A stretch of 64,000 nucleotides of DNA from a virus: positions 32,001-96,000 of the IMG/VR virus record IMGVR_UViG_3300045988_101454. One strand, 5' to 3'. The translations under genes were made by a program, and so were the position numbers. This document shows, piece after piece, positions 3,619 through 49,285 of this stretch. Under the pieces are notes generated by a model, which saw only the letters and a list, made by a program, of their open reading frames with translations, did not search any database and was not told the origin of the DNA. How positions within the stretch are numbered: the stretch's first letter is position 1; every line of letters begins with the position of its first letter.

Positions 3619-3650
3619 ATTCAATTTTTTTTATAGTTCTACTAATACTT

Positions 3651-3794
3651 TTATCTCTGTATGCCCCCCTCCTGCGTATGCAGCGTGGGCGATATTCCTT
3701 TAGCGGAATACACGCGGCGGTTCTGCTCAAATATACGGTCGTAGGGTGGTGTCTGCATCATGCCGACTACGAGGGTGTGTGCGGTGTCAGTCAT
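3651..3794 (-). pseudogene. TRD-like mini-ORF 10 (C5-MTase target-recognition-like), frame set by a C6 tract
   Basis: MTDTAHTLVVGMMQTPPYDRIFEQNRRVYSAKGISPTLHTQEGG, then IQR and a stop. One extra G in tract 3664-3669 would give ...GGHTEIKVLVEL ending at 3631. ATGACTGA overlaps the upstream stop. Confidence 0.45.
3664..3669. repeat. C6/G6 homopolymer inside mini-ORF 10
   Basis: Sequence is atgcccccctcc. The tract length determines which C-terminal tail is read. Confidence 0.8.
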
Positions 3795-4485
3795 CGACAT
3801 CGATAAATCGGACCTTTGCTTCTGCAAACTTTTTCTCGCAAATAACACCAAGACCTTCAATGATGCCCAGGCATGATTTACATTCCAGACAGAATGTGGA
3901 GCATACATGAGGACCATCTTGATAGTACGGGCAGTTCGCCCCCTTTGCCATATAGAGTTTCTTGTCCTTCACAAAGGAATGAATTGCCTTTGCAAAACGC
4001 TCCAATTCCTTGTTCATCATTTCCACCGTGTCGCAATGATAGCGCAACTGGTTCATGTCGAAAGAAGTCTGCTTTGGCGTTTTTTCGTCATGCTGCTTCT
4101 CCGTTTCGTTCAACTGGCGTACCACGTCGTTGTAGTCGTCCATGAGCTGATGCACGCGCTGCTCAAGCTCCACGTTCTCTGCCTTCAAATCGGCGATGAT
4201 GTAGGCAAGCACCTCCATTCGGTTGTTCTTAGGTAGGTCTATATACTCGCATACAGCCAGATGTCTTTCCATATACTTGCGTTGCTCGTCAGTAGCGGGG
4301 TCGTAGGCATCGGCTGTTCGTGTGCCTACGCGATAGGGTGGAGGTGGGGTCTGAAAAATTCTTCGCATATCGGTAATTGCCGAATACTTCACCACTCCAT
4401 CTTCGTCTACTCGCGCTACCTTTACCAACATCTTTCGCTCTTTGTCGTAAAGGATGTCGCCAGGGGTGATTTCTTCTGTTTTCAT
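3787..4485 (-). CDS. Hypothetical coiled-coil protein with Cys-rich C-terminus
   Basis: 232 aa with C-terminal CPYYQDGPHVCSTFCLECKSC. Leader is AAACAATAGAGACAATG. Confidence 0.6.
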   Translation of the reverse strand: MKTEEITPGDILYDKERKMLVKVARVDEDGVVKYSAITDMRRIFQTPPPPYRVGTRTADAYDPATDEQRKYMERHLAVCEYIDLPKNNRMEVLAYIIADLKAENVELEQRVHQLMDDYNDVVRQLNETEKQHDEKTPKQTSFDMNQLRYHCDTVEMMNKELERFAKAIHSFVKDKKLYMAKGANCPYYQDGPHVCSTFCLECKSCLGIIEGLGVICEKKFAEAKVRFIDVDD

Positions 4486-6270: not shown

Positions 6271-6422
6271 TTATTCATATTCTATCAATACAATGGTGTG
6301 CTGTCCGTGTTCATCGTAGAGCCCTGCCCATCCGTCGTAGCGGGCGGACAATGCCGTGGAATACCCCCCCGACGTGGGCAGAGCTGGGATGTGCGTTGTA
6401 CGAAAGGGATTTGTTTAATCAT
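6271..6422 (-). pseudogene. TRD-like mini-ORF 9, out of frame at a C7 tract
   Basis: MIKQIPFVQRTSQLCPRRGG, then out of frame. G8 instead of G7 would restore ...GGYSTALSARYDGWAGLYDEHGQHTIVLIEYE. ATGATTAA overlaps mini-ORF 8. Confidence 0.45.
6364..6370. repeat. C7/G7 homopolymer in mini-ORF 9
   Basis: Sequence is ataccccccc gacg. It is one nt short of the frame that gives the conserved tail. Confidence 0.85.
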
Positions 6423-6590
6423 ACGTTATCAATACCATATTGTCTTTGCCTACTGATGTGAGGGTGTTGGTTGTCCCCCCCCCCCGTTTATCTCCATTCG
6501 CTGAAAGAAGCGTCCGTTGGAGGGATGCTTGCGGTTGGACGGATTATCGGGGGCACGGCCTCGGAAGGCTGCTATGCGAAAGTCAATCAT
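6415..6590 (-). pseudogene. TRD-like mini-ORF 8, out of frame at a C11 tract
   Basis: MIDFRIAAFRGRAPDNPSNRKHPSNGRFFQRMEINGGG. With G9 or G12 it continues TTNTLTSVGKDNMVLITYD. As sequenced (G11) it stops at 6450. Confidence 0.45.
6475..6485. repeat. C11/G11 homopolymer in mini-ORF 8
   Basis: Sequence is ttgt + 11 C + gttt. This is the longest G/C tract in the window. Confidence 0.9.
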
Positions 6591-8441: not shown

Positions 8442-8513
8442 GCCGTAGTTCTAGTCGTTGTAGTGGGTTTGTGGGGAGTCTTGGTTTTGTTAAAGTTCAT
8501 GGGGGTTGGTGTT

Positions 8514-27760: not shown

Positions 27761-27858
27761 AAATGCTTCGCTAATTGCGAAAGATAGCGCAAGATAAATG
27801 CTTTGCCGCTTGCGAAAAGCGTAGCGCAAGGAAATGCTTTGCTGCTTGCGAAAGACTA
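27761..27858. repeat. 2.7 tandem copies of a 35-36 nt hairpin-forming unit at the tape-measure 3' end
   Basis: Units at 27761-27795, 27796-27831 and 27832-27858. Each contains TTGCG...CGCAA inverted repeats, and the last overlaps the TAG stop. Confidence 0.8.
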
Positions 27859-33432: not shown

Positions 33433-33452
33433 TGTTTTCTGTTTTTGTGTTG

Positions 33453-33980
33453 TTAGAGAGTGATATGGATGTCAGAATCCTCAAAAGCCTTAATTATCTG
33501 TGCTTCGCCCTGGTAGCCGTAGAAGTCAACGAGATAGTTTTGCATACGCGATTGCAGGTGTCGAAGCTCCATCATAATGGCAGGACGCTGTGACCGACCC
33601 GCTCCATAGCGTTTCCAGGAACGGACATAGCGGCGAGAGTAGTTGGCCTTTCGTGCGCTATCCACATCGTTGTACTTAGTACCGAGACCTACACCCATAT
33701 CCACAAAGCGCATATAGTCGTTGTAGGTAAACTCGTAGGTCCAGCCTTCCGGAGTGTCGTTCACTATCCTGCCTTGGAAAGAGTTTACGCCCACTCCCTC
33801 GGCGTGCCATTGTCCGCGTGCTCCACGGGCATCGTTTATAGCCCGAAAGCCGCTGTAAATCTCCTTCGGGAAGATGCACTGCGTCTCGGTGTTTATCTTG
33901 AGCTGACGCAATACGTCGCCAAGATACCATCGTGCGGTGTCCTTGAAATCAAAGGCCGGGGCTTGTATTGGTTTTGGCAT
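33453..33980 (-). CDS. Hypothetical protein (tail-assembly position)
   Basis: 175 aa, immediately upstream of the tape measure gene. Confidence 0.5.
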   Translation of the reverse strand: MPKPIQAPAFDFKDTARWYLGDVLRQLKINTETQCIFPKEIYSGFRAINDARGARGQWHAEGVGVNSFQGRIVNDTPEGWTYEFTYNDYMRFVDMGVGLGTKYNDVDSARKANYSRRYVRSWKRYGAGRSQRPAIMMELRHLQSRMQNYLVDFYGYQGEAQIIKAFEDSDIHITL

Positions 33981-33986
33981 GATGTT

Positions 33987-34589
33987 TTACTTTTTTTTAT
34001 CATCCGAGTTTTCATCTTTCGGCACAATATACTTGCCGTTGCTGCCACACGCGAAGTTGTATAGCGGTTGCAGGCTCTTCCAGTCCATACCCACGACGAG
34101 CCATTGTCCGGCATAGATGTCGCCCACCATGCCGAAGGAGATGGAGCTGGTGTCGATGCTTTGCAGCTCTGCCATCACCACGGCATCATCGGCAAAACTG
34201 CGCTTTGTGACGGGACAGCGGCCTGTGCGCTTCACCTCAAGAAGCCACGACACGAGGTCTTTACAATAGTCCTTCAGACTTTCGGCTGTCTGTTCCATCT
34301 TGCGACCGTCGTAACGGCCAAGGGTCTGCGGTGTGTCTTTTACTTTAGCGAGAAACCACACCTGCTGAGAGACAGATGCCTTCTTTGCGTCAACGAGTTC
34401 ACCAGTGGTAATGATGCTGTATAGCATACACGGCGAGTGAACGATGTTGGCATTTCGGGAAAAGATGTTCTCAAGGTCGATGTAGCGGATGCGGAAGAAA
34501 CTCTGGTCTTCGAGGCGTTCGCTTTCGGGGTTGTGAGAAAGGGGCTCGTAGATAGAAGCCCAATGCTCAAGAATATTGCTTATTGTCAT
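33987..34589 (-). CDS. Hypothetical protein
   Basis: 200 aa ORF. Confidence 0.5.
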   Translation of the reverse strand: MTISNILEHWASIYEPLSHNPESERLEDQSFFRIRYIDLENIFSRNANIVHSPCMLYSIITTGELVDAKKASVSQQVWFLAKVKDTPQTLGRYDGRKMEQTAESLKDYCKDLVSWLLEVKRTGRCPVTKRSFADDAVVMAELQSIDTSSISFGMVGDIYAGQWLVVGMDWKSLQPLYNFACGSNGKYIVPKDENSDDKKK

Positions 34590-34679
34590 AATGCTGCTAA
34601 ATTTTGATTTTACATCGGGAGAAAGGGCTAAGCCTCACTGGACCTCACTGAGCCTTTCTAAGCCTTTGGGAGGGAAGCC

Positions 34680-35207
34680 TTACTGCTCTTTCGCTGTCTC
34701 CGCTGTTTCCTCCGCTTCCTCCTTATCCTTCATCAGCTCCTTCAGCTTTACGTTGAAGTGTCGCTCGGTCTTATCTGCCACAATCTTTTGCAGCACTCTT
34801 GCCCATGCCGCTCCGTTGCAGGTGCTCTCATTTTCGAGTATGCTGACGAACTGCACCAGGCAGTACATGGCGGTGAGTTGGTTGGCGAGGTGGGTGTTCA
34901 TGTAGCCGAGAATGTTGCGGTCAATATACGAGGCAAGGCAGATGCACATGATTAAGACCGAGAACGTCCACACCATCTTTGCCATCTTCTTGGAGCGCAG
35001 CTTACCGTCCATCTTACACTTCGGGTTACGCTTTATCTCCTCGCGGTATTTTTGATAGATGCGTCGGTTGCATCGCCATGCCGTATAGCAGTCGATGATG
35101 AGGGCGAAGAAGCATACGGTGATAAAATTGATTGAGGGTTCGATGTGAACCCACAGCAAGCCGAGCACTGCGGCAATGGCTCGCGAGACATAGAATGGAT
35201 TGTTCAT
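34680..35207 (-). CDS. Holin-like membrane protein (tentative)
   Basis: Has 3-4 TM segments, FVSILENESTCNG reminiscent of holin family 4, and a charged C-terminal tail. Confidence 0.45.
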   Translation of the reverse strand: MNNPFYVSRAIAAVLGLLWVHIEPSINFITVCFFALIIDCYTAWRCNRRIYQKYREEIKRNPKCKMDGKLRSKKMAKMVWTFSVLIMCICLASYIDRNILGYMNTHLANQLTAMYCLVQFVSILENESTCNGAAWARVLQKIVADKTERHFNVKLKELMKDKEEAEETAETAKEQ

Positions 35208-35254
35208 GTTTTTGTGTTGTGTTTTGTGTTGTTGTTGTCCTAAATTTTATGCAA

Positions 35255-35262
35255 CAAATTTA
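35255..35262 (-). promoter_or_regulatory. -7 box TAAATTTG for leftward operon
   Basis: Lies about 48 nt upstream of the ATG at 35207, in a divergent intergenic region. Confidence 0.45.
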
Positions 35263-35341
35263 CTGATAAACTGCTACGCACAGCGGACATGGTGGGGTAC
35301 GGGGAGATTGAGCATGTCCGTATGGGGAAGAAAGTTTATCG

Positions 35342-35349
35342 TAACTTTG
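35342..35349 (+). promoter_or_regulatory. -7 box TAACTTTG for rightward operon
   Basis: Lies about 22 nt upstream of the ATG at 35371. An 8-bp inverted repeat (CGGACATG/CATGTCCG) lies at 35284-35320. Confidence 0.45.
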
Positions 35350-35370
35350 GCTACATAAAAACACAAAACT

Positions 35371-36177
35371 ATGTCAGGAATTACGCAAAACACATTGGCC
35401 CGCATCGACAAGTGGCTCTCTTACGGCACGAGTATGCAGACGGCGTTCCCCAAGCTGGATCAACGCTACCGTATGCAGATATGCTCAGAGTTTTATAAAC
35501 GATGGGTGCAAAACAAGGACATCGACCCTCGGACGGTGTGCCGCAATATTGCCCGACGCGACTATGAGATGTTCTTCAACCAGGCAGCGCAGGGCAACAA
35601 GGAGGCGCAGGAGTATGTGCTTGCGCTGAAGATTACACTCGACGACGAGGGTAATATCTGTCCGCGTACCGTTACGGAGCTCAACAACGACGTGTTGGTG
35701 TGCAACCACCTGATACGTTTCTTCCAGACCGACGAGAGTCCACGCCACAAGGCTATGTATCTGAGCAGTGCCGAGTGGTTGATACGCACGGGTAAGCAGC
35801 AGAACAACGATCGTGCAGTGGATAAGGGTATGCAAGCCTTAGCTAATGTGTATGGCAACTTCCAGGAGGAGAAAGACGCTACGGACGAGATGCCGGATAT
35901 GAGTCGCATTGCCATCACGCAGGATGTGAGCATCGTCAAACGCGACCGCATCAACTACACCGAGGAGGAGAAGCTGCGCATGGCCCGCAAGTATGGTCTT
36001 ACTACCAAGGACCTGCAGGAGATAGAGGACGACGAACTGTTGAATGGGGAGAAGCCAGAAGAGCCGGACTACTTCGAGTATATGGAAAAGAAGGACGAGG
36101 AGGATGTGATTAGACACGGGTACATGAAAGAAAGCAAATTAACAAATAATTCCGAGCCAACGGATGATACGGAATGA
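35371..36177 (+). CDS. Hypothetical protein (first gene of terminase/modification operon; small terminase not excluded)
   Basis: 268 aa with an acidic C-terminus. Only its position supports a packaging role. Confidence 0.5.
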   Translation: MSGITQNTLARIDKWLSYGTSMQTAFPKLDQRYRMQICSEFYKRWVQNKDIDPRTVCRNIARRDYEMFFNQAAQGNKEAQEYVLALKITLDDEGNICPRTVTELNNDVLVCNHLIRFFQTDESPRHKAMYLSSAEWLIRTGKQQNNDRAVDKGMQALANVYGNFQEEKDATDEMPDMSRIAITQDVSIVKRDRINYTEEEKLRMARKYGLTTKDLQEIEDDELLNGEKPEEPDYFEYMEKKDEEDVIRHGYMKESKLTNNSEPTDDTE

Positions 36178-36198
36178 ACGGAAACATAAGGAATAGAG

Positions 36199-37218
36199 AT
36201 GAAAATAGGACTCATAGACGTGGACGGACGACACGGCAAAAAGAAATGGGGAGCTACGATATACCCTAACGTGGCTCTCGGCAAGATTGCCCGTTGGCAC
36301 ACGATACGGGGCGATGAAGTGGAATGGGCTCAATCTACCGACCTTTTCGACAGGCATCATTACGACATACTGTATGCCAGTAAGGTCTTTAACTTTTCGC
36401 CCGACATCGACTTTCGGCAGTTCTCCTACGACCGGTTGGAGAAGGGTGGCACTGGCTACGACATCTATAAGCGTCTGCCCGACGAGATAGACAAACTCCA
36501 GCCTCTCTACGCAATGTACCCTTGGCTACCGAAAAATCAAGCCGTAGGCAAACTTACCGAGGGGTGCCCTAACAAATGCTTCTGGTGTGTCGTTCCGAAA
36601 AAGGAGGGACGCATACGTCCTTACATGGATATAGAAGAAATTGCCATCGAGGGGCGCACGCATGTTGTGCTGATGGACAACAACATTCTTGCGGCGGGTG
36701 ACTATGCAAAGGAACAGCTCAAAAAGATAATCGACCTTGGTCTGCATATAGACTTCAATTAGGCGATGGACGCACGGCTTGTCACTCCGGAATATGCCGA
36801 ACTGTTAGGCAAGGTGAAATGGATAGACTCCCGCATCCGCTTTGGTTGCGACACCACAGCACAGATAGCAGAGTGTGAGCGAGCCATGCAACTTATCAAT
36901 GCAGCAGGATTCCGGGGCGAATACTTTCTCTATACCATGATAGGCGGCAAGAACGACGTCCGAGAATGTTACCACCGTCTGCACTACTGGTGGGAGCGAC
37001 TGCAACGCTTTCGTATGAGCCATGAAGGCAGAGCCGTGTACGCCTACGCACAACCATACCGTGACCCTACAAATCCCAATCACGCAATCCCCGAATGGCA
37101 GAAGGATATGGCCCGATGGTGCAACAAGCGAATGATATTCTGCACCACCGACTTCAAGGACTTCATGCCAAGAAAGGGTTTCAAGTGTGAGTGGTATTTG
37201 AAGGAGTACGGAATATAA
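36199..37218 (+). CDS. Radical SAM protein interrupted by in-frame TAG at 36760-36762
   Basis: CPNKCFWC is a CX3CX2C motif. The two track ORFs (36199-36762 and 36766-37218) share one frame across the junction HIDFN-TAG-A-MDARL. Confidence 0.7.
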
Positions 37219-37291
37219 GGTGATAGGTATAACCTTAGCGAAGTAATAGGCATAACATAAACTTCATAAACAAAAGCAATATACAAACGAT

Positions 37292-38144
37292 ATGATAACA
37301 GAGAATTTACAGAAAAAGATTGATCGTGCCATCCGTCTGCTTCAAGGCATACAGAAGTTATACGATGGCGAGATAGAGATAGCCTATTCGGGCGGTAAGG
37401 ACTCCGACGTGATCCTTCAACTGGCGAAAGAGTCCGGCATCAAGTATCGAGCCATATACAAGAATACGACCATCGACTCGCCAGGCACGTTGGGGCACGT
37501 CAGGGAAATGGGAGTGGAGATACTGCGGGCAAGATTCCCTTTTTTTCATCTCGTGGCGCAGAAAGGATTTCCATCTCGCTATAGTCGTTTCTGTTGTGAA
37601 AAACTGAAGGAATATAAGGTGCTCAACAAAAGCATTATCGGCGTGCGCAAGGCTGAGAGCTGGAAACGAAACGAAAGATACAACGAGCCAACAAAGTGCC
37701 GATACTACGGAGCGAAGAAAGAGGAAAATCACGTAGAACAGATTTATCCTATTCTGGAATGGACCGATGAGGACGTGCGCAACTTCATCATAGACAGAAA
37801 GTTGAAACTCGCACCCATTTATTACAATTCGGGGGGGGCAAATCGACGTGTCGAAACGTCTCGGCTGCATGTGCTGCCCTCTCGCCTCAAGGCGCAAGCG
37901 CATTATCGAGTTTCAGAAATATCCCAAGATAGCAAAGGCTTATCTCCGTGCGGGGCAACGATTTATGGAAACGCATCCTGACAGCAAGGCGTGCCAGAGG
38001 TACGACAACGTTTACGAATGGTTCACTCGCGACGTATTTTACAGCTCCGATACAGATTGGAACAAGGTAAGCACAGGGCTGTTCGGTAAGCCGGACTTCA
38101 AGAAGTTCTTGGAGGACAAGTTCTGTATTGACTTGACATTATAA
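37292..38144 (+). pseudogene. PP-loop ATPase (PAPS reductase/DndC-like superfamily), frameshifted at a G8 tract
   Basis: Has the SGGKDS PP-loop. G7 instead of G8 would join ...IYYNSGGQIDVSKRLGCMCCPLASRRK.... Two track ORFs overlap here. Confidence 0.7.
37831..37838. repeat. G8 homopolymer in PP-loop ATPase gene
   Basis: Sequence is aattc + 8 G + caaatc. It is one nt longer than the in-frame length. Confidence 0.9.
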
Positions 38145-38155
38145 ACAACACAATT

Positions 38156-38437
38156 ATGATAACAATAAAAATCAAGACATGGAAGGACTGGAAGCAGGAC
38201 TTCATCGATTGGGTAAAGGAGCCACGGCGCAAGACGTGCAAGGAGTATGTGGACTACATGGAGGCTTTACAAAAGAAGACTCTCTACAAAATAATAGATG
38301 ACACTTGTGATAAATACAACAACATGCGTGAGGGTCAAATCCAAGACATCACAGAAGCAGTAGAAAAATGCGTGGCTGCTTGTGCTGAAAAAGCACGCAA
38401 GTTAATCGATGATTGTCAGCCCGCAAAATTTTTCTAA
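38156..38437 (+). CDS. Hypothetical protein
   Basis: 93 aa ORF. Confidence 0.55.
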   Translation: MITIKIKTWKDWKQDFIDWVKEPRRKTCKEYVDYMEALQKKTLYKIIDDTCDKYNNMREGQIQDITEAVEKCVAACAEKARKLIDDCQPAKFF

Positions 38438-38478
38438 GACTGGAACTTCCATTATAAGCAACAAAAACTCTACACAAC

Positions 38479-39088
38479 ATGAACAACAACATAAAAAGAA
38501 AGGACTGGGTGGGCGGCTCGGCCGCTGTATTCAAGACGTTGGGCGCAAGCAACCATACGGATGCGGATAGACAGCGTGAGGATTACTATGCCACAGAACC
38601 GAAAGCGACGGAATGGCTGTGCAAACTGGAGCATTTTGAGGGCCGGATATTGGAGCCTTCGTGTGGCGAGGGTCACATGAGCCGGGTGTTGGAGGCAGCA
38701 GGATATGAGGTGGTGAGCCGCGACCTTGTGGATAGAGGTTACGGCGAGGTGGCTGACTTCCTCTCAATAGACAACTTGGCGTGGGACGGAAACATCATCA
38801 CCAATCCGCCCTACAAATTCGCACAGCAGTTCGTTGTGAAGGCTCTGAGCATCATCCCCGAAGGAAAGAAAGTGGCGATGTTCCTTAAGCTAACTTTCCT
38901 CGAAGGCAAGGCTCGACGCACTCTCTTCCGTTCTACCCCCCCCCATTCGTGTTTGGGTAAGCTCGTCACGACTGAAATGCGCTCCAAACGGCGACTTCAA
39001 CGCTATTGTTGGCAGCGCAACGGCTTACGCATGGTTTGTATGGGAGAAAGGATATAAAGGCGAGACAACTGTAAAATGGTTTAACTGA
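38479..39088 (+). pseudogene. N6-adenine-type DNA methyltransferase (motif I then NPPY), frameshifted at a C9 tract
   Basis: ILEPSCGEGHMSRVL and IITNPPYKF. C8 instead of C9 would give ...TPPIRVWVSSSRLKCAPNGDFNAIVGSATAYAWFVWEKGYKGETTVKWFN. Confidence 0.7.
38936..38944. repeat. C9 homopolymer in methyltransferase gene
   Basis: Sequence is ttcta + 9 C + attcg. It is one nt longer than the in-frame length. Confidence 0.9.
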
Positions 39089-39108
39089 TAGAAAAAAAAC
39101 AATAGAGC

Positions 39109-40011
39109 ATGATAGAACTGAATAAGATATATAATGAAGACTGCCAGGAAGGGATGATAGCCATTCAAGATAATTCCATAGACCTTGCGGTTGCAGACCC
39201 TCCTTACTGGAAAGTAATTGACGAGCAATGGGATTATCAATGGAGAACTGAGAGCGACTATGTGGAATGGTGCATTAAATGGATGAAGGAGGTTGCACGA
39301 GTTTTGCGTATAGGTGGAACATTCTACTGCTTTGGTTATTTCAGAATCTTAGTCTTGCTCATTCCTTACCTTGAATCACTTGGACTTGAATTAAGACAGC
39401 AAATTGTTATTGATAAGGGTATGCGTGTCGTAAGCGGACGGGCTACACGAAGATACAAGATGTTTCCTAACGTAACGGAAAGCGTACTCTTTATAATCAA
39501 AGACAACAAGAAATTTGTAAAGCCATTCCTCAAAGAACGCCAAGAAGCATTAGGACTGACTGCCAAGCAAATCAATGAAGCGTTGGGGGTTAAGTCTAAT
39601 GGCGGTGGCATGTGGAGTATTTACACCGGCAATAACGTATGTGAGCAATTTCCTACGAAGGAGCTCTGGGACAAACTTTCCCATGTACTCTCCTTTGATT
39701 GTCCGTATGAAAAAGTCGCTCAGACATTCAATCCGCAAATAGGAGTTACTGACGTGTGGTCTGATATTAACTTTTATGAAGAAAAACATATCCATCCCAC
39801 TCAAAAGCCGTTAAAGCTAATCCGTAGACTGATAAAAGCCAGCAGTAACGAAGGTGATATTGTCTTAGACCCGTTTTCGGGAGTGGGAACAACGCAGGTA
39901 GGCTGCGTACAGACCAAGCGCAACTTCATCGGCTTCGAGCTCAACAAGGAGTATTACGACAAGGCTTGTAAGCGCATCAAGTTGGAGCAAGCGCAGTTCA
40001 CGCTGTTCTGA
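39109..40011 (+). CDS. Beta-class N6A/N4C DNA methyltransferase (DPPY ... FSGVGTT)
   Basis: 300 aa with AVADPPYW, IHPTQKPLKLIRRLI and DPFSGVGTT. Confidence 0.85.
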   Translation: MIELNKIYNEDCQEGMIAIQDNSIDLAVADPPYWKVIDEQWDYQWRTESDYVEWCIKWMKEVARVLRIGGTFYCFGYFRILVLLIPYLESLGLELRQQIVIDKGMRVVSGRATRRYKMFPNVTESVLFIIKDNKKFVKPFLKERQEALGLTAKQINEALGVKSNGGGMWSIYTGNNVCEQFPTKELWDKLSHVLSFDCPYEKVAQTFNPQIGVTDVWSDINFYEEKHIHPTQKPLKLIRRLIKASSNEGDIVLDPFSGVGTTQVGCVQTKRNFIGFELNKEYYDKACKRIKLEQAQFTLF

Positions 40012-40078
40012 CAACTCAAAAATGGATAAATCCTAATCGCCAACGGCGACAATTCAAAACGAATAAATGATATAGAGA

Positions 40079-40864
40079 ATGATAGAACTGAATAAGATAT
40101 ATAATGAAGACTGCCTGGAAGGCATGAAAAGGATTCTGGACGGAAGTGTGGATTGCATTGTGTGCGATTTGCCGTATGGTACTACTGCTTGTGCTTGGGA
40201 TAGCGTAATTCCATTTGACAAGTTGTGGGAGCAATACAAGAGAATCATAAAGAATACTGGTGCTATAGTCTTGTTTAGTCAGCAACCTTTTACGTCTGCG
40301 CTTATCATGTCGAACATAGATATGTATAAGTATAATTGGATATGGAAAAAGGAGAGTGGTACTAATTACTTAAATTCCCATCATCAACCATTGAAGATTA
40401 CAGAAGATATATGTGTTTTTGGAATGGCAGCAACAACTGAAAGCAAGAAAAAAAAGTATATGGAGTATCATCCTCAAATGATTAAGGGGTACAAGCCTTA
40501 TGCCTGCAAAAATGGCATTCAACGAAAAGACGCTGCAATGGTACGAGGAAAATGTCAAGCGCAGACTGGAGGAGCTGTGACAGTAAGTGATGGTTCTCGT
40601 TTCCCTATAAATTTACTCGAATTTATTCGGGATAAGGAGAAGATCCATCCCACCCAAAAGCCAGTTGCTCTTATTCAGTACCTCATCCGTACCTACTCCA
40701 ACGAGGGCGACACCATATTAGACAACTGTATGGGCAGCGGCACCACCGCCATTGCAGCTATCCGTGAAAAGCGCAACTTCATCGGCTTCGAGCTCAACAA
40801 GGAGTATTACGACAAGGCTTGCAAGCGCATCAAAATGGAGCTGGCGCAGCCTACTCTCTTCTGA
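40079..40864 (+). CDS. Beta-class N6A/N4C DNA methyltransferase (DLPYG ... MGSGTT)
   Basis: 261 aa with VCDLPYG, IHPTQKPVALIQYLI and DNCMGSGTT. Its termini are near-identical to those of 39109-40011. Confidence 0.85.
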   Translation: MIELNKIYNEDCLEGMKRILDGSVDCIVCDLPYGTTACAWDSVIPFDKLWEQYKRIIKNTGAIVLFSQQPFTSALIMSNIDMYKYNWIWKKESGTNYLNSHHQPLKITEDICVFGMAATTESKKKKYMEYHPQMIKGYKPYACKNGIQRKDAAMVRGKCQAQTGGAVTVSDGSRFPINLLEFIRDKEKIHPTQKPVALIQYLIRTYSNEGDTILDNCMGSGTTAIAAIREKRNFIGFELNKEYYDKACKRIKMELAQPTLF

Positions 40865-40896
40865 CAACACAACTAACAACAACACAAAAACAACAC

Positions 40897-41127
40897 ATGA
40901 GTAACAACCGACACAAATACTTCAACAAGGTACCGCCGTTCAAGCCGGACCCTGAACACTACACTCGCAAGCAGCACTCTTGGAAAGCGAAAGAGGCTTA
41001 CGAGACGGAAGATGATGCTTGGGAATATCTCAATCAGAATCCGAAGCTGCGGGCACAGGGCATGACAGCGTACCGATGCAGGACGTGCAACAAATGGCAC
41101 ATAGGACATAAGACGCACAGCGAATAA
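40897..41127 (+). CDS. Small basic protein with C-terminal CxxC (76 aa)
   Basis: MSNNRHKYFNK...YRCRTCNKWHIGH. I prefer the ATG at 40897. Confidence 0.5.
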   Translation: MSNNRHKYFNKVPPFKPDPEHYTRKQHSWKAKEAYETEDDAWEYLNQNPKLRAQGMTAYRCRTCNKWHIGHKTHSE

Positions 41128-41156
41128 GCAACACAACACAAAATCAGGATAACACA

Positions 41157-43148
41157 ATGCAGCAAGCACACAACATATACTTAACCAAATTCCAGCAGCA
41201 GTCACTATACATGGGAGCCAAGGACGAGCGAGTGATTGCTGCCCGCCGTGTGGGTAAGACCGACGGACTTGTGGCTCCTTACGTCTGGATGGCAAGCAAC
41301 TCCATGCCTGGTATGCTCGGCGCATGGGTGGCAGTGTCGCGTCAGCAGGGCTTCGGCAAGACCATACCGAGTACGATGGCAGCAATGGAGCGTATGTTCG
41401 GCTTTACGCAGGGCATTCACTTCGGTTGGGGTCGCCCGCCGAAACATGCCCGTGAGAGTATCTTCAAGCCCAACAACTACGACAACTACATCTGGTTTGC
41501 CAATGGTGCTGGATGGGTGCTTATATCCCTCTCGCAGACTGCGAGTGCCAACAGCTACACTTTTAGCGCACTTGTGGGGGACGAAGCGAGGTTCTTTCCG
41601 CTAAAAAAGGTAACTGACGAGTTGCTGCCGGCTCTTTCTGGCCAGACGCATCCATTGGGCGACATCAACTTTACGGAGTATAATCCGATGTATAAGAGTA
41701 CGCGATTCCTCTCCGATGCTGCGCTCACAGCCAAAGGGTCGTGGCTCGAAAGGGAGGAGGAAAAGTTAGACATGGCAGTTGAGACGGGTCCGTTCAAAGG
41801 AAAGACCTACCGATGGGTGCAGGAGCAGTTGGAGGATTATGCCGACAAGGTGATACGCTACAACGACCTGCTGTATAACGCCAAGAAGACCAATCACTCG
41901 GTTCATGTAGTTCCGAAGGAGTTGCGCACAATGATTCGTGCCGTGGCTCTGAAGATGATGAAGCACGAGGGGCAGTTCCGCATTATGCCTAATCATGGGC
42001 AGCACGTCACTAAGGGTATGGTGGAGATGGCGGTAAACTATAAACTTATTCCGCAGGACGATGCCGAACTGGTTTATGATTACGAGTATCTGATTACGCC
42101 AGAAGAGGATTTTGAGATGCAGATGTTCCTGCGCTCAAAGAAGTTTGCGGATGGATATCTGCGTGAGCTGCGCCGCGTGGCTTTCTGTGTGCGCCGTGCG
42201 TCATCCCTCGACAATGTGGATGTTTTGGGTGAGGATTACATAAGGCAGATGCGCCGCGATCTTCCACCCATGACCTTCGCAATTTCAATCCTCAACATCA
42301 AAGTAAAGAAGACAAACGATGGCTTTTACTCCAACCTCGACATCGACCATGTTCACGGGTATATTCCAGATGAGGATATTTTAAATCAAGCAAATTTTAG
42401 CACAAAAAAAGTAACGGGTATAATCGGCGGCAAGCGCATCACAAGCGAGAGTTATCAACCCGACTTCAAGGAGTTGGGCGAGCGCAACGACTCACGCATG
42501 GACTCCGACTGCATCAACTCCCTCCCCTTATACATAGCCTTGGATTACAATGCCAACATCAATACCTTGGTGGTGGGACAGATGTACGAGCGTGACGGGA
42601 TGGAGTGTCTGAACGTGATCAAGAGCTTCTATGTGAAGAACGAGCGCAAGCTGCGTGAACTGATAGCCGATTTTTCTGATTATTACGCACCCAAGCGAGC
42701 CATCAACCGCGACGTGACGTATTTTTATGATGCCACAGCCAAACAGGGAGCCTCGTATGCTTCGTCAGACGAGCGATTCTACATGACCGTGATTGCAGAA
42801 TTAGAGAAGCGAGGTTGGAACGTGACGGCCATTGACATGGGCGCACCGGAGAAGCACGAGGTGAAGCACAAGATTATCAACGACGGCTTGGCTCACCTCT
42901 CCTACCCTGCCATCCGCATCAACCAGGTAAACAATCCCGACCTTATCATTGCCATGCAGCTGTGCGAGGTGCAGATTTCGTATAAGGGATTCCACAAAAA
43001 TAAGAGTCAAGAAAAAAAGCCCGAGAGTGAAGACACGCTGCCCTTGGAAAACCGTACCGATTTTACGGACGCTTTCGATACGCTGTATTTAGGTTGCAAG
43101 TTCTTCCGAGTCGGTGGCGGTTGGTTTGTGCTGCCAAGTGGAAGATGA
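41157..43148 (+). CDS. Terminase large subunit
   Basis: 663 aa with Walker A-like AARRVGKT and Walker B-like ALVGDEARF. The size is typical. Confidence 0.7.
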   Translation: MQQAHNIYLTKFQQQSLYMGAKDERVIAARRVGKTDGLVAPYVWMASNSMPGMLGAWVAVSRQQGFGKTIPSTMAAMERMFGFTQGIHFGWGRPPKHARESIFKPNNYDNYIWFANGAGWVLISLSQTASANSYTFSALVGDEARFFPLKKVTDELLPALSGQTHPLGDINFTEYNPMYKSTRFLSDAALTAKGSWLEREEEKLDMAVETGPFKGKTYRWVQEQLEDYADKVIRYNDLLYNAKKTNHSVHVVPKELRTMIRAVALKMMKHEGQFRIMPNHGQHVTKGMVEMAVNYKLIPQDDAELVYDYEYLITPEEDFEMQMFLRSKKFADGYLRELRRVAFCVRRASSLDNVDVLGEDYIRQMRRDLPPMTFAISILNIKVKKTNDGFYSNLDIDHVHGYIPDEDILNQANFSTKKVTGIIGGKRITSESYQPDFKELGERNDSRMDSDCINSLPLYIALDYNANINTLVVGQMYERDGMECLNVIKSFYVKNERKLRELIADFSDYYAPKRAINRDVTYFYDATAKQGASYASSDERFYMTVIAELEKRGWNVTAIDMGAPEKHEVKHKIINDGLAHLSYPAIRINQVNNPDLIIAMQLCEVQISYKGFHKNKSQEKKPESEDTLPLENRTDFTDAFDTLYLGCKFFRVGGGWFVLPSGR

Positions 43149-43229
43149 TGAAATTAGGAGTTAGGAATTAGGAGTTGTCGCCGTTGGCGATTTGGAATTA
43201 TTCAATTTGGAGACTTGTATATTAAAGGC

Positions 43230-43262
43230 GAAGGGCAGACGTTATCACAACGGCTGCCCTTC
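43230..43262. terminator. Bidirectional hairpin between convergent operons
   Basis: 9-bp stem GAAGGGCAG/CTGCCCTTC. Confidence 0.55.
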
Positions 43263-43321
43263 TAAAGTGTAAAAAATGAAAATCGCTAATAACAAATTGC
43301 TTTGTTTCTTGGGGTGTACGA

Positions 43322-43947
43322 TTACAAGAAAACTGGCAGTCTACGCCACACGCCACCATTCGGCTGAAACTCTTCCTGCCATTCTCTATATTCTACGTCA
43401 AATTTTGCACCATAAAAAGCCAAACCTTCGAGAGGTAGGCTCTTGATGTATTCCTCCTGCTGCTTACGGGTCATAAAGTCGTTAGACATGAGAATAATGC
43501 GGTTGTTGCGGAGGTAAGCAGAGCACTGAAATATGTACTGCGGATTAGATAACATCTCCCTAATAGCAGCATAATCTGAAATACTCTTCGGAGAGAAATT
43601 AATACCGTTCACGCCAGAAAAGAACTGCTCAGGGTAGCGAAGTATATCTACGTTTTCTAACATCGGGAAGCCTGAAGTGTAGATATAGACATATTCGATG
43701 TTATGGTAATCATAGCGCAGCTGTGCGAGTTATCCATGAGACTTTCTACATAGAACGGATCGCCACCAGTGAGCATAACGGTATGTGCTGCCTTCAACTC
43801 TTCTACAGTTACCACAGGAACCGTATCGAGGTCGTACTGCTTGTTGCAGCACAGCGGACAAGAGTTACCACACCATCTGTTAATCATCAAGTGTATGGCT
43901 CCCTTGTCGGCTCCTGGCTCGTCTGTATATTTACGTTTTGTTTCCAT
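43322..43947 (-). pseudogene. NrdG/QueE-like small radical SAM activase, frameshifted
   Basis: WCGNSCPLCCNKQ (CX3CX2C) and LTGGDPFY. The frame then shifts near 43715-43725 to ...LAQLRYDYHNIEYVYIYTSGFPMLENV..., which continues as track ORF 43322-43663. Confidence 0.55.
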
Positions 43948-43952
43948 ATTGT

Positions 43953-44273
43953 CTATTGTTGTTCGTTTTCTTCCTTCAGCATATCGTGTCGTAGCCCTAT
44001 GAGCCACGACTTGAGATTGATGTAACGGTTGTTGTCGAGGTTTGCATCGCGCCATTCGGCATATTCATCATAGGACATATTGTTCTCGATGATACGCACC
44101 ATATCTTCCGGATTCAGCACGTCGGATTCCTCGAAGTCACACGCCCCACCTACCTCGTCGCCAATCCAATAAAACTTGCGACAACCATCAAAGATCTGTT
44201 CGTTGACGAGTTCTGCCAACTTATTGCAACTATCCTTGTACTGCTTTATAAATTTATTTAAATTAGGGTTCAT
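43953..44273 (-). CDS. Hypothetical protein
   Basis: 106 aa ORF. Confidence 0.5.
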   Translation of the reverse strand: MNPNLNKFIKQYKDSCNKLAELVNEQIFDGCRKFYWIGDEVGGACDFEESDVLNPEDMVRIIENNMSYDEYAEWRDANLDNNRYINLKSWLIGLRHDMLKEENEQQ

Positions 44274-44794
44274 ATCTGCAAATTTAGTTTTTCGACTTTT
44301 GCCTTAAACTTTTCCTCTTCCGTTTCTGTGGCGAACCTAAAAATAATTAGCCGTGCTCTTGAATACGAACTATGAAAGATTATCCCCTGGTCAATAAATA
44401 ACGTCTTTGTTTTTAAAGATCCAAGAAGATAATAGTGGACAGCGAAAGAGGGGGCAACAGACAGACCTTTAAACTTCATAATAAAAGTATCCATCTTACC
44501 ACCGTCTAAAAGATAATCTACAGCCACTATGTCGCCATCATTAAAATCAAGAATATCCCAACTACGGCACGAAGAAGAAGGTAGTAGCATAGGTTCTCCT
44601 TGTTCAAAGTTGGCTAAATGAGCATCGTCGCGAAAAAGATAACACTCATTGTCTTTTTGATCGGAAAGGTTTACTACACAGATTCCTGAATCATTCACTT
44701 CAACTACCTTTACCCAACCGAACAAAGGACAATATAACATAGTACCTTTAGGCAAACTACGCAAAAAATTCCTTAGTCTTTGATTGTGTTCCAT
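44270..44794 (-). CDS. Hypothetical protein, paralog of 5444-6250
   Basis: 174 aa with FLRSLPKGTMLYCPLFGW, GEPMLL...RSWDILDFNDGDIVAVD and RFATETEEEK. Confidence 0.6.
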   Translation of the reverse strand: MEHNQRLRNFLRSLPKGTMLYCPLFGWVKVVEVNDSGICVVNLSDQKDNECYLFRDDAHLANFEQGEPMLLPSSSCRSWDILDFNDGDIVAVDYLLDGGKMDTFIMKFKGLSVAPSFAVHYYLLGSLKTKTLFIDQGIIFHSSYSRARLIIFRFATETEEEKFKAKVEKLNLQI

Positions 44795-44819
44795 ATCTAT
44801 ATTATTTTAGTGAGAAACA

Positions 44820-44854
44820 ATTAGGGGAAATTTTCCTTTGTTTTCCCCTAATTT
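44820..44854 (-). terminator. 12-bp hairpin after 44901-45410
   Basis: Stem AATTAGGGGAAA/TTTCCCCTAATT with an 11-nt loop. Confidence 0.55.
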
Positions 44855-44900
44855 CTTCTATTGCCTAATCTTTTTCTCTTACCGACATAATGTTTCGGAT

Positions 44901-49050: not shown

Positions 49051-49285
49051 TTAATATAATCTCGCCCTGCTATCGCTCATATCATCCATCGTGCGCACCT
49101 TATACCATTTCTTCACTCGGTTCTTCGGCGCATACACCTTTGAAAGCCCGATAAAGCTGCTGCAAGCGAGGTGCAGAGGACTGATGTTGCCGCCGAACAG
49201 CGGGGAACTCTGCTCCCTGCAACTACATTTTATGTGGTTGTAAGAAATGCAGTTTTCGCATCTGGGGGGGGGTGAATGTTCGCAT
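49051..49285 (-). pseudogene. Cys-rich small protein (78 codons if G8), out of frame at a G9 tract
   Basis: ATG at 49283-49285 gives MRTFTPP and then stops early. G8 would give ...PPRCENCISYNHIKCSCREQSSPLFGGNISPLHLACSSF...KKWYKVRTMDDMSDSRARLY. Confidence 0.4.
49264..49272. repeat. G9 homopolymer at codons 6-8 of the Cys-rich small ORF
   Basis: Sequence is catct + 9 G + tgaatg. Confidence 0.9.

What the first reader, a model, noticed from the sequence alone, without database searches (positions are those of the whole stretch)
37831..38944. Two adjacent DNA-modification genes each switched off by a long G/C homopolymer one nucleotide too long
The PP-loop ATPase (SGGKDS ... KRLGCMCCP) is split by a G8 tract at 37831-37838 and would be in frame with G7. 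The NPPY methyltransferase is derailed by a C9 tract at 38936-38944. With C8 it would regain the conserved ending AYAWFVWEKGYKGETTVKWFN.

Tracts of 8-11 G or C are rare by chance in a roughly 45 percent GC sequence. Across the window such tracts all sit inside ORFs (also 3664, 6364, 6475 and 49264). This is the signature of slipped-strand phase variation, a phasevarion-type switch, here on a phage-plasmid's own modification genes. The alternative is homopolymer length miscalling in the assembly. Even then the tracts themselves are real and hypermutable.
Basis: partly seen in the sequence, partly recalled or inferred. Interest (0 to 1): 0.7.

Follow-up and report, generated by a model that had tools for sequence, protein, structure and literature searches.

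The report
Hypermutable G/C tracts switching phage modification genes
Two neighbouring genes of an uncultured gut phage (a PAPS-reductase-like enzyme and a small DNA methyltransferase) are each knocked out of frame by a run of G or C, and related phage genomes carry the same runs in many lengths, in frame and out of frame, so these are real hypermutable on/off switches and not one-off errors.

Summary
G8 at 37831-37838 splits a PAPS-reductase-like gene, and G7 restores a 283-aa protein. C9 at 38936-38944 splits a small NPPY methyltransferase, and C8 restores 202 aa.

Evidence from related phage contigs supports slipped-strand ON/OFF variation:
- In 66 related contigs the first site carries G4 to G9, giving 28 in-frame and 38 out-of-frame alleles.
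- Some genes are 100% identical apart from tract length.
- All 38 OFF alleles are otherwise intact. The part downstream of the tract has dN/dS 0.15, the same as in ON alleles.
- Distant relatives without a tract are always in frame.
- A genome from another sample with about 21 differences over 11 kb has C8, so its methyltransferase is ON. The exact repaired methyltransferase protein exists in public data.
- A sister clade carries a different tract elsewhere in the same methyltransferase.
- G/C runs of 7 or more vary at 81% of sites, against 20% for A/T runs.

Four further tracts in the window (3664, 6364, 6475, 49264) also vary among relatives, and all are out of frame here.

Not shown: heterogeneity within one population, enzyme activities, and any regulon ("phasevarion") or phage-plasmid status.

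This is a new, well-sampled natural example of phage contingency loci in DNA-modification genes. The kind is already known from the T2 agt gene and from Campylobacter phages.

The parts
37292..38144 (+). PAPS-reductase-like PP-loop ATPase gene, out of frame in this window (229-aa product ending at 37981; conserved C-terminal 100 aa in the other frame)
   Evidence: Repaired 283-aa protein: Pfam PF01507 46.8 bits against a cutoff of 22.5, covering residues 29-197; phrog_424 at 1e-29. AF2 model of an ON homologue has pLDDT 91.5, and its best PDB folds are CysD, APS reductase, the FAD synthase PAPS domain and TtuA. Invariant C101 C102 ... C192-x-x-C195.
37831..37838 (+). G8 tract (codes Gly-Gly in a loop, residues 181-183). 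G7, G10 or G4 would be ON; G8 is OFF.
   Evidence: The homologous site in 66 relatives carries G4 to G9: 28 ON and 38 OFF.
38479..39088 (+). Small NPPY (amino-) methyltransferase gene, out of frame in this window (192-aa product ending at 39057)
   Evidence: Repaired 202-aa protein: phrog_799 'DNA methyltransferase' at 1.7e-66 over residues 5-202. Motif I EPSCGEG and motif IV NPPY are visible in the sequence.
38936..38944 (+). C9 tract (codes Thr-Pro-Pro). C8 would be ON; C9 and C7 are OFF.
   Evidence: Relatives: C8 ON x8, C7 OFF x6, C9 OFF x2, interrupted CCCCACCC ON x8. L118 has C8.
36199..37218 (+). Radical-SAM gene of the same island, inactivated here by a TAG nonsense codon at 36760-36762
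   Evidence: With Q at that position it matches phrog_9298 over its full length. Nine relatives and L118 have CAG there.
39109..40011 (+). Intact N6_N4 (beta-class) DNA methyltransferase, no tract in this window
   Evidence: PF01555 at 5.9e-43.
40079..40864 (+). Second intact N6_N4 DNA methyltransferase. Its homologue in relatives carries a G6-G9 tract.
   Evidence: PF01555 at 2.7e-29. Tract site 'caaatgtGn tgcgttc' has lengths 6 to 9 in relatives.
6415..6590 (-). About 57-aa mini-ORF (MIDFRIAAF...TNTLTSVGKDNMVLITYD) split by the C11 tract at 6475-6485
   Evidence: Most relatives have 9 nt without a tract (ACCTCCAAC) or A followed by C6 to C8. The window has 11 nt, which is out of frame.
6271..6422 (-). 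About 50-aa mini-ORF (MIKQIPF...YSTALSARYDG...IVLIEYE) split by the C7 tract at 6364-6370
   Evidence: Relatives have 4 to 8 nt here. In-frame lengths are 5 or 8 (intact 49-aa ORF in L088). The window is out of frame.
3631..3800 (-). About 55-aa mini-ORF (..RVYSAKGISPTLHTQEGG | HTEIKVLVEL) split at the C6 tract 3664-3669
   Evidence: L089 and L102 (which has C10) read through to ...EIKVLVEL*. The window is 1 nt short. Homologues are standalone proteins of 47-90 aa.
49264..49272 (+). G9 tract in a gap between called genes. On the minus strand, C8 would join ATG MRTFTPP to a 77-aa Cys-rich frame (49051-49285).
   Evidence: The one relative found, L106, has G7, also out of frame. The evidence that this is a gene is weak.

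Best explanation
**What it is.** The G8 and C9 runs are contingency loci. These are homopolymer tracts inside coding sequence that gain or lose bases by slipped-strand mispairing when the phage genome replicates, so each gene flips heritably and reversibly between in-frame (ON) and out-of-frame (OFF).

**State in this genome.**
- The PAPS-reductase-like gene is OFF. Its product stops 46 codons after the tract. It loses the CXXC half of an APS-reductase-type CC...CXXC cysteine motif and the 100-aa C-terminal domain.
- The small NPPY methyltransferase is OFF. It loses its conserved last 48 residues.

**Setting.** The two genes sit in a variable DNA-modification island next to the terminase gene of an uncultured human-gut phage. 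Relatives of this phage are binned with Prevotella genomes. In this phage family many genes of the island carry such tracts, and the genes switch independently.

**Shown here.** The tracts, the frame consequences, length polymorphism among close relatives, intactness and purifying selection of OFF alleles, and independent origin of tracts in the same gene.

**Inferred.** Switching also happens within a single phage population. Its benefit would be bet-hedging of the phage's own DNA-modification state. Modification ON would protect against host restriction-modification systems. Modification OFF would avoid modification-dependent (type IV) restriction or the cost of the enzyme. This is the trade-off shown experimentally for T2 agt.
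For: **Frames.** G7 and C8 restore full-length proteins whose family matches span the tracts.

**PAPS-like site in 66 relatives with at least 70% identity.**
- Lengths G4 to G9 occur in four flank contexts, giving 28 ON and 38 OFF alleles.
- ON alleles differ by multiples of 3: G4/G7, G6/G9 and G5/G8.
- Three pairs have 837 nt of identical gene sequence but different tracts: L011 G7 / L042 G8, L004 G9 / L032 G7, and L044 G9 / L051 G8.
- All 38 OFF alleles keep an intact 179-aa N-terminal part and a 100-aa C-terminal reading frame running to the native stop.
- dN/dS of the part downstream of the tract is 0.151 for OFF-OFF pairs and 0.148 for ON-ON pairs. It is 0.07-0.22 within the window's own G8 lineage.
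- The 15 distant relatives have GAT GGT-type codons, no tract, and are all in frame. Tract versus no tract: Fisher p = 3.5e-6.

**Methyltransferase site.**
- C8 is ON in 8 relatives. C7 and C9 are OFF in 8 alleles (six C7 relatives, one C9 relative and the window's own C9).
- The synonymous interruption CCC-CCA-CCC is ON in 8, and the sister clade's CCA-CCT is always ON (p = 1.7e-5).
- L118, from a different ENA sample, differs from the window at about 21 positions in 11 kb. One difference is C9 to C8.
- The exact repaired 202-aa protein is in the public collection.
- In the sister clade the same gene carries a different G tract before motif I: G5 and G8 are ON, G7 and G9 are OFF. The window's clade has no tract there and is ON in 24 of 24 alleles. 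This means the tracts arose independently.

**Independence of the two switches.** All four ON/OFF combinations occur among relatives.

**Controls and context.**
- With identical 15-nt flanks, G/C runs of 7 or more vary at 81% of sites (8 or more: 92%), against 20% for A/T runs of 7 or more.
- GGG is only 6.1% of Gly codons in the window.
- G/C tracts of 7 or more in the relatives' 12.8-kb loci lie almost entirely in the modification island.

**Precedent.** T2 agt poly-A contingency locus (PMC12633550).
Against: - No read-level data are available, so heterogeneity within one population and true reversibility are inferred, not observed.
- In the window's own sub-lineage ('aattc' flank), 8 of the 11 alleles are G8 OFF although they have diverged (dS up to 0.3 among the closer lineages), and their downstream frame is still under purifying selection. 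This fits fast switching around a modal length of 8. It would equally fit some expression from the 'OFF' allele.
- An exact ON version of the window's own PAPS-like protein was not found in the collection.
- Every coding tract in the window is OFF. The window also has a nonsense codon (36760) and a 1-nt deletion outside any homopolymer (43731) in two other genes. So this particular genome may simply be accumulating lesions.
- No enzyme activity, methylation motif or restriction trade-off has been tested.
- The function of the PAPS-like protein is unknown.
Confidence: 0.75

Rival explanations
1. Homopolymer length miscalling. The true sequence would be G7 and C8, and the frameshifts would be sequencing or assembly errors in this contig and in the 'OFF' relatives.
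For: Long G/C runs are error-prone on several platforms. No reads could be inspected. L117, which is 100% identical to the window, may be the same sample assembled twice, so it is not independent support.
Against: - Out-of-frame lengths occur in more than half of 66 separately assembled contigs, including differences of 2 and 3 bases (G5, G6, G7, G9 in one flank context).
- A/T runs of the same length are four times less variable, and the T7 run inside the same gene never shifts the frame in 66 loci.
- Interrupted alleles and alleles without a tract are never frameshifted.
- The tract sites differ between clades. An error process would not produce that pattern, whereas evolved hypermutability explains it.
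Confidence: 0.05
2. Leaky or programmed recoding. RNA polymerase slippage or ribosomal frameshifting on the G8/C9 run would restore some full-length protein, so 'OFF' alleles would be attenuated and not silent. The tract would then set dosage.
For: - G8 is the commonest length in three of four flank contexts, whatever frame it produces.
- In the 'aattc' lineage nearly all sampled genomes are G8, yet the downstream frame has dN/dS 0.07-0.22.
- Runs of identical bases allow perfect tRNA re-pairing in shifted frames (general knowledge).
Against: - A programmed shift predicts a conserved out-of-frame arrangement. Here 42% of alleles are simply in frame, and closely related genomes differ.
- Efficient transcriptional slippage is established for long A/T runs, not G/C runs (general knowledge, not tested here).
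- No stimulatory structure was sought or found.
- This could coexist with DNA-level switching.
Confidence: 0.1
3. Neutral decay. The genes would be dispensable cargo being lost, with the tracts acting as mutational hot spots with no selected switching role.
For: - The window carries other lesions: a TAG in the radical-SAM gene, a frameshift at 43731, a truncated C5-methyltransferase core, and every tract OFF.
- The ON fraction (42%) is close to the 33% expected from random lengths.
- The island's gene content varies between relatives.
Against: - No OFF allele of the PAPS-like gene has a second lesion: 38 of 38 are intact.
- dN/dS is 0.07-0.15 and identical in ON and OFF lineages.
- Tracts arose independently at two positions of the same methyltransferase.
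- They use the rarest Gly codon.
- They are concentrated in modification genes.
Confidence: 0.08

Closest known systems
Contingency locus in the T2 agt gene (alpha-glucosyltransferase). Gomez, Barrick & Waters, bioRxiv 2025, PMC12633550.
   Same: A phage's own DNA-modification gene is inactivated and restored by +/-1 slippage in a coding homopolymer. The proposed benefit is a trade-off between defences that attack modified and unmodified DNA.
   Different: - T2 uses poly-A runs of 6-9 in an A/T-rich coliphage and was shown experimentally. Here the runs are G/C of 7-11, in methyltransferase and PAPS-reductase-like genes of an uncultured gut phage.
- Here the evidence is natural allele diversity across dozens of metagenomic genomes.
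- Here several genes of one island carry tracts.
Hypermutable polyG tracts of Campylobacter Fletchervirus phages. Sorensen et al., Cell Rep 2021; cited in PMC12823448; details from my own knowledge.
   Same: PolyG tracts in phage coding sequences create phenotypically mixed progeny.
   Different: Those tracts lie in receptor-binding and structural genes and affect host recognition. Here they lie in DNA-modification genes. The host phylum also differs.
Bacterial phasevarions: phase-variable Type III mod and Type I hsd methyltransferases of Haemophilus, Neisseria, Helicobacter and Moraxella (e.g. PMC7394358, PMC6902483, listed).
   Same: Change in simple-sequence-repeat length switches a DNA methyltransferase ON or OFF.
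   Different: - Phasevarions are chromosomal restriction-modification components whose switching re-programs a host regulon. Here the genes are orphan methyltransferases on a virus with no restriction partner.
- The expected consequence here is protection or exposure of the phage genome itself.
- No regulon is shown.
PolyG/C contingency genes of Campylobacter jejuni and Helicobacter pylori (e.g. PMC3025981, PMC4889913).
   Same: Coding G/C homopolymers of about 8-11, many loci per genome, independent switching ('phasotypes').
   Different: Those are cellular genomes and mostly surface-structure genes. Here the genome is viral and the genes are for DNA modification.

Membership tests
SSR-mediated contingency locus (phase-variable gene) | Simple-sequence repeat inside the ORF, longer than composition predicts | tested here: met
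   G8 and C9 lie in coding sequence. Runs of 8 or more: 4 observed against 0.03-0.36 expected.
SSR-mediated contingency locus (phase-variable gene) | A change of repeat length toggles the reading frame between a full-length and a truncated product | tested here: met
   G7/G10 and C8/C11 restore the 283-aa and 202-aa proteins; G8 and C9 truncate them.
SSR-mediated contingency locus (phase-variable gene) | Repeat length is polymorphic among otherwise near-identical genomes (locally elevated mutation rate) | tested here: met
   Genes are identical except for the tract. L118 versus the window. 81-92% of G/C tract sites vary against 20% of A/T sites.
SSR-mediated contingency locus (phase-variable gene) | Reversibility: OFF alleles are not dead ends | tested here: met
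   Indirect. 38 of 38 OFF alleles are otherwise intact. Downstream dN/dS is 0.15 in both OFF and ON lineages. Direct reversion was not observed.
SSR-mediated contingency locus (phase-variable gene) | Length heterogeneity within a single population or clone | not testable with these tools
   Needs read pile-ups or plaque lineages.
Phasevarion (methyltransferase-controlled phase-variable regulon) | The switching gene is an active DNA methyltransferase | tested here: inconclusive
   phrog_799 'DNA methyltransferase' at 1.7e-66, and motifs I and NPPY are present. No Pfam family reaches its threshold, there is no NCBIfam hit, and activity was not tested.
Phasevarion (methyltransferase-controlled phase-variable regulon) | Part of a Type I or Type III restriction-modification system (mod/res or hsdMSR) | tested here: not met
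   The neighbours are other orphan methyltransferases, radical-SAM and PAPS-like genes and the terminase. No res or hsd genes are present.
Phasevarion (methyltransferase-controlled phase-variable regulon) | ON/OFF state changes the expression of a set of genes | not testable with these tools
   Needs transcriptomes of locked variants.
Programmed frameshift or transcriptional slippage site | The out-of-frame arrangement is conserved among relatives | tested here: not met
   28 of 66 alleles are in frame, and closely related genomes differ in state.
PAPS-reductase / PP-loop ATP pyrophosphatase superfamily (first gene) | PP-loop SGGxDS motif, a family profile above threshold, and the adenine-nucleotide alpha-hydrolase fold | tested here: met
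   SGGKDS is present. PF01507 scores 46.8 bits against a cutoff of 22.5. Foldseek matches CysD, APS reductase and TtuA at E 4e-9 to 1e-6.
PAPS-reductase / PP-loop ATP pyrophosphatase superfamily (first gene) | Acts on DNA (as DndC, SspD and the BREX type 4 PAPS-reductase-domain protein are thought to) | not testable with these tools
   Only the genomic context is available. The DndC model gives E = 0.004, far below its cutoff.
Stop-codon-recoded phage (TAG read as an amino acid) | In-frame TAG conserved in relatives, or a suppressor tRNA | tested here: not met
   Relatives have CAG at 36760. The window has no tRNA. TAG ends 15 of 79 long ORFs.

The most novel reading that the evidence does not exclude
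The window's phage family may carry a genome-wide 'phasotype' of at least six independently switching G/C tracts that sets methylation specificity as well as on/off state.

Three of the tracts lie in members of an array of standalone proteins of about 50 aa. These proteins carry a motif resembling that of C5-methyltransferase target-recognition domains (G-x-x-x-T-L-T ... h-h-I-E-Y-D). In relatives the array flanks a circularly permuted C5-methyltransferase core whose N-terminus begins at motif IX.

If these mini-proteins are exchangeable recognition subunits acting in trans, tract slippage would turn individual specificities of a multispecific methyltransferase on and off.
Probability: 0.12. 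Interest if true: 0.85.

Novelty: new member of a known kind. Interest (0 to 1): 0.58.

Why it matters
- **Phage contingency loci in nature.** Until now they rested on Campylobacter phages and a 2025 preprint on laboratory coliphages. This is population-scale natural evidence from dozens of independently assembled gut-phage genomes. It shows that abundant, uncultured, probably Prevotella-infecting phages keep several of their own DNA-modification genes on hypermutable switches.
- **Biology, if the bet-hedging reading is right.** A single burst would contain progeny with different epigenetic coats. That bears on host range, on the stalemate between restriction-modification and modification-dependent restriction, and on how such phages persist in the gut.
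- **Annotation.** Gene callers split or truncate these genes. The public collection holds 229-aa and 192-aa 'proteins' that are OFF alleles.
- **Methods and catalogues.** Linking phages to hosts by shared methylation motifs would be unreliable for these phages. Catalogues of 'auxiliary metabolic' cysH/PAPS-reductase genes in viromes include this switching gene.

Tried and rejected
- **Close cultured relatives.** Megablast of the island against GenBank phages gave no match. Protein searches found only distant Bacteroides and Porphyromonas phage relatives at 37% identity or less. No named close relative exists.
- **TAG recoding.** I considered this because of the in-frame TAG in the radical-SAM gene. 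I rejected it because relatives have CAG and the window has no tRNA.
- **Radical-SAM and PAPS-like genes as an obligate pair.** Rejected. Only about 10 of 66 loci have the radical-SAM gene, and its intactness does not track the PAPS-like ON/OFF state.
- **PDB sequence searches.** Searches for both proteins were uninformative. Only the fold search placed the first protein.
- **NCBIfam.** It gave only sub-threshold hits.
- **Promoter and terminator scan around 49264.** Uninformative.
- **Mini-ORFs as parts of full-length methyltransferases.** The homology search found only small standalone proteins. A profile of the mini-ORFs hit the M.HhaI recognition-domain region only at E = 1.4. The 'recognition module' idea therefore stays a hypothesis.
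- **Exact ON versions of the window's PAPS-like protein (G7, G10, G4).** Not in the public collection.
- **Literature.** Searches found no report of phase-variable methyltransferases encoded by phages.
- **A Markov simulation** timed out. I replaced it with an analytic estimate.
Full report
**1. The observation**

The window has G8 at 37831-37838 and C9 at 38936-38944.
- The first tract lies in ORF 37292..37981. This ORF starts with a PP-loop motif (SGGKDS) and runs out of frame for 46 codons after the tract. The conserved continuation (KRLGCMCCP...) is ORF 37848..38144 in the next frame.
- Deleting one G gives one 283-aa protein. Adding two Gs also restores the frame.
- The second tract lies in ORF 38479..39057. 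Deleting one C gives a 202-aa protein ending AYAWFVWEKGYKGETTVKWFN.

The tracts are far longer than composition predicts.
- G/C runs fall about eightfold with each added base up to length 5 (740, 108, 13). After that there are 2 runs of 6, single runs of 7 and 8, two of 9 and one of 11.
- Between 0.03 and 0.36 runs of 8 or more are expected. Four are seen.
- GGGGGGG occurs 14 times against 2.2 expected, and none of 100 shuffles reaches that count.

**2. What the genes are**

*First gene.*
- The repaired protein matches Pfam PAPS_reduct above threshold across residues 29-197, which spans the tract. It also matches phrog_424.
- An AlphaFold model of an in-frame homologue has pLDDT 91.5. Its nearest solved folds are CysD, APS reductase, the PAPS domain of FAD synthase and the tRNA thiolase TtuA.
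- In an alignment of 33 homologues, C101, C102, C192 and C195 are invariant. This CC...CXXC spacing is the one that, from general knowledge, binds the 4Fe-4S cluster of APS reductase.
- The tract codes for a Gly-Gly loop at residues 181-183. The OFF product therefore lacks the CXXC pair and the helical 100-aa C-terminal domain.
- The substrate is unknown. 'DNA modification' is inferred only from the neighbouring genes.

*Second gene.*
- The repaired protein matches phrog_799 'DNA methyltransferase' at 1.7e-66 over its whole length.
- It shows motif I (EPSCGEG) and NPPY.
- No Pfam or NCBIfam model reaches its threshold.

*The island.* In order it contains:
- a radical-SAM gene;
- the PAPS-like gene;
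- a 93-aa ORF;
- the small methyltransferase;
- two intact N6_N4 methyltransferases;
- a 102-aa ORF;
- the large terminase.

*The rest of the window.* It encodes phage replication and morphogenesis proteins: a sliding clamp, a primase, a ligase, RtcB and a head protease. Relatives of the PAPS-like gene in genome bins are mostly labelled Prevotella or Prevotellaceae. No close cultured phage exists in GenBank.

**3. Relatives: the PAPS-like gene**

A scan of IMG/VR returned 80 loci on viral contigs of 9-145 kb. I located the N-terminal and C-terminal halves separately in each locus and compared their frames. All 66 relatives with at least 70% identity carry a G run at the homologous site, in four flank contexts.

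| Flank context | ON lengths | OFF lengths |
|---|---|---|
| aat + Gn | G9, G6 | G7, G5 |
| aattc + Gn | G7, G4 | G8, G6 |
| gatac + Gn | G7 (13 loci) | G8 (19 loci), G9, G6 |
| ccaRtc + Gn | G8, G5 | G7, G6 |

- In total 28 alleles are ON and 38 are OFF.
- Two alleles have the run interrupted (acgaGGGGG) and are in frame.
- The 15 more distant relatives (60% identity or less) have ordinary Asp-Gly codons, no run, and are all in frame. The association of frameshifts with a tract has Fisher p = 3.5e-6.
- Three pairs of contigs are identical over all 837 nt of the gene outside the tract and differ only in tract length. These include ON/OFF pairs.

**4. Relatives: the methyltransferase**

In the window's clade the site reads as follows.
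- C8 is ON in 8 relatives.
- C7 is OFF in 6.
- C9 is OFF in the window and one other.
- CCC-CCA-CCC is ON in 8. It codes the same Pro-Pro, so it is a synonymous interruption.
- act + C6 is ON.

In the sister clade the same Pro-Pro is CCA-CCT and is always in frame.

The sister clade instead has a G run 90 codons upstream, just before motif I. There G5 and G8 are ON and G7 and G9 are OFF, while the window's clade has no run at that position and is in frame in 24 of 24 alleles. Two different tracts in the same gene in two clades argue that mutability itself was acquired repeatedly.

The exact repaired 202-aa protein is present in the public collection. Its contig L118 comes from a different ENA sample and has the window's gene order. 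Over 11 kb (34,000-45,087) it differs from the window at about 21 positions. Three of these stand out:
- C9 to C8, which puts the methyltransferase ON;
- TAG to CAG in the radical-SAM gene;
- a 1-nt indel at 43731.

L118's PAPS-like gene is called as the same 229-aa truncated product (OFF), with no difference from the window at the tract.

Among relatives all four ON/OFF combinations of the two genes occur, so they switch independently.

**5. Controls**

- *Decay.* All 38 OFF alleles of the PAPS-like gene keep both halves intact to the native stop.
- *Selection.* dN/dS of the 100 codons downstream of the tract is 0.151 between OFF genomes, 0.148 between ON genomes and 0.147 between ON and OFF. 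OFF lineages are therefore not evolving as pseudogenes.
- *Platform error.* Among sites with identical 15-nt flanks in at least two loci, G/C runs of 7 or more differ in length at 25 of 31 sites and runs of 8 or more at 22 of 24. A/T runs of 7 or more differ at 11 of 55, and those examined lie between genes. The T7 run inside the PAPS-like gene never shifts the frame.
- *Codon choice.* GGG is the rarest Gly codon in the window at 6.1%.
- *Location.* In the relatives' 12.8-kb loci, G/C runs of 7 or more lie almost exclusively between positions 5,860 and 11,280, which is the modification island. They hit other methyltransferases there, including a Dam-like gene with three runs.

**6.

- *6475 (C11).* It lies in a 57-aa minus-strand mini-ORF. 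Fifteen relatives have 9 nt without a run (ACCTCCAAC) and others have A followed by C6, C7 or C8. The window's 11 nt is out of frame.
- *6364 (C7).* It lies in the next mini-ORF. Relatives have 4 to 8 nt, with in-frame lengths of 5 or 8. The window is out of frame.
- *3664 (only C6).* It lies in a third mini-ORF. L089 and L102 (C10) read through, and the window is 1 nt short.
- *49264 (G9).* It lies between called genes. On the minus strand, C8 would join an ATG to a 77-aa Cys-rich frame. The window (C9) and the single relative found (C7) are both out of frame. This one is uncertain.

So every tract varies among relatives, and every one is in the OFF length in this window. By chance that would happen about (2/3)^5, or 13%, of the time.

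**7. Mechanism and rivals**

*Best explanation (0.75).* Replication slippage changes tract length. Progeny inherit ON or OFF alleles of each gene independently. The population therefore carries a mixture of modification states. The adaptive reading is inferred by analogy with T2 agt, where a poly-A contingency locus lets the phage alternate between glucosylated DNA (attacked by TgvAB) and unglucosylated DNA (attacked by McrBC) (PMC12633550). In that reading, ON protects against host restriction-modification and OFF escapes modification-dependent restriction or the cost of the enzyme.

*Rivals.*
- *Assembly error (0.05).* The evidence against it is in section 5.
- *Leaky recoding (0.10).* I keep this open for two reasons. 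G8 is the modal length in three of four flank contexts whatever frame it gives. In the window's own 'aattc' lineage nearly all genomes are G8 OFF, yet the downstream frame has dN/dS 0.07-0.22. Fast switching around a mutational optimum of about 8 explains this. Partial expression from G8 would also explain it.
- *Neutral decay (0.08).* It is opposed by the intact OFF alleles, the low dN/dS, the repeated origin of tracts and the codon choice. However, this particular genome does carry extra lesions.

**8. Comparison with what is known**

- The mechanism is the classic contingency locus based on a simple-sequence repeat.
- It is not a phasevarion in the strict sense. There is no restriction partner, it is not in a cellular chromosome, and no regulon is shown.
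- It is not a programmed frameshift, because the out-of-frame state is not conserved.
- The closest precedents are T2 agt and the polyG tracts of Campylobacter phages.
- Searches of the held literature found no report of phase-variable methyltransferases encoded by phages.
- I therefore rate it a new member of a known kind. It is notable for the number of tracts, their concentration in modification genes and the depth of natural sampling.

**9. Limits**

- No reads were available, so within-population heterogeneity and reversion are inferred.
- Enzyme activities and targets are unknown.
- Host assignment rests on genome-bin labels.
- Many of the 66 relatives come from one IMG/VR compendium (3300045988) whose sample structure I cannot see.
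- The dN/dS pairs are not phylogenetically independent.

Noticed in passing
window 36760-36762: There is an in-frame TAG in the radical-SAM gene (36199-37218), read as FN*AMDARL. Nine relatives and the near-identical L118 have CAG (Q). This is a nonsense mutation in this genome, not stop-codon recoding.
   Followed up: yes
window 43731 (gene about 43323-43950, minus strand): A 1-nt deletion relative to L118 (GAGTATATCC becomes GAGTTATCC), not in a G/C run, splits a 208-aa ORF with a weak Radical_SAM hit into two ORFs (43322..43663 and 43657..44055). It is a second lesion in this genome that does not involve a tract.
   Followed up: partly
window 3631-3800 and 6271-8000 (minus strand); L088 4600-8310: There are arrays of translationally coupled mini-ORFs of 40-60 aa, with start codons overlapping the preceding stop (ATGATTGA). 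Each has a G-x-x-x-T/A-L/I-T/S motif and most end in ...IEYD/E. In relative L088 the arrays flank an intact circularly permuted C5-methyltransferase (motif order IX-X-I-IV-VI-VIII, 447 aa, 5912-7255). Homologues are all standalone proteins of 47-90 aa with no Pfam domain. A profile of the mini-ORFs hits the M.HhaI recognition-domain region only at E = 1.4. They may be recognition modules acting in trans, but this is unproven.
   Followed up: partly
window 8001-8450 (minus strand): Only the last 150 aa of the C5-methyltransferase core survive here, from motif VIII (NYGVPQNRDRVF) onward. The first 297 residues have no counterpart anywhere in the window. The core is therefore truncated, while the mini-ORF arrays remain.
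   Followed up: yes
window 32527-33600 (N-terminal part of the 1858-aa gene 27856-33432, minus strand): The divergence between the window and L118 is concentrated here. 125 of the 158 differences over 12.6 kb lie below 33,500, densest around 32,527-32,816. The substitutions are not adenine-specific. This looks like a recombined or mosaic patch in a large protein that I did not identify.
   Followed up: no
window 49051-49285 (minus strand): A possible 77-aa Cys-rich ORF (MRTFTPPRCENCISYNHIKCSC...) would exist only if the tract at 49264 were C8. The window (C9) and L106 (C7) are both out of frame.
   Followed up: partly
L053 8512, 8559, 8834; L048 10062; L009/L018 9214-9241: In relatives, a Dam-like (MKYGLPYKGSKNKL...) methyltransferase carries three G7-G8 runs and is broken across three frames. 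The N6_N4 methyltransferase has a G6-G9 run in ...TNVGGCVLDN. These tracts are absent from the window's own copies.
   Followed up: partly
loci L003-L082, homologous site of window 37831: G8 is the commonest tract length in three of the four flank contexts, whether it means ON or OFF. This suggests a mutational equilibrium length and not selection on the state at the time of sampling.
   Followed up: partly
window 1455-2630 (minus strand): An RtcB-type tRNA ligase (phrog_1075, 1.5e-128) lies close to the methyltransferase-related region. Benler et al. 2021 (PMC8008677) describe a similar neighbourhood of methyltransferases and a tRNA ligase in 'Quimbyviridae' gut phages. The relationship was not tested.
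   Followed up: no
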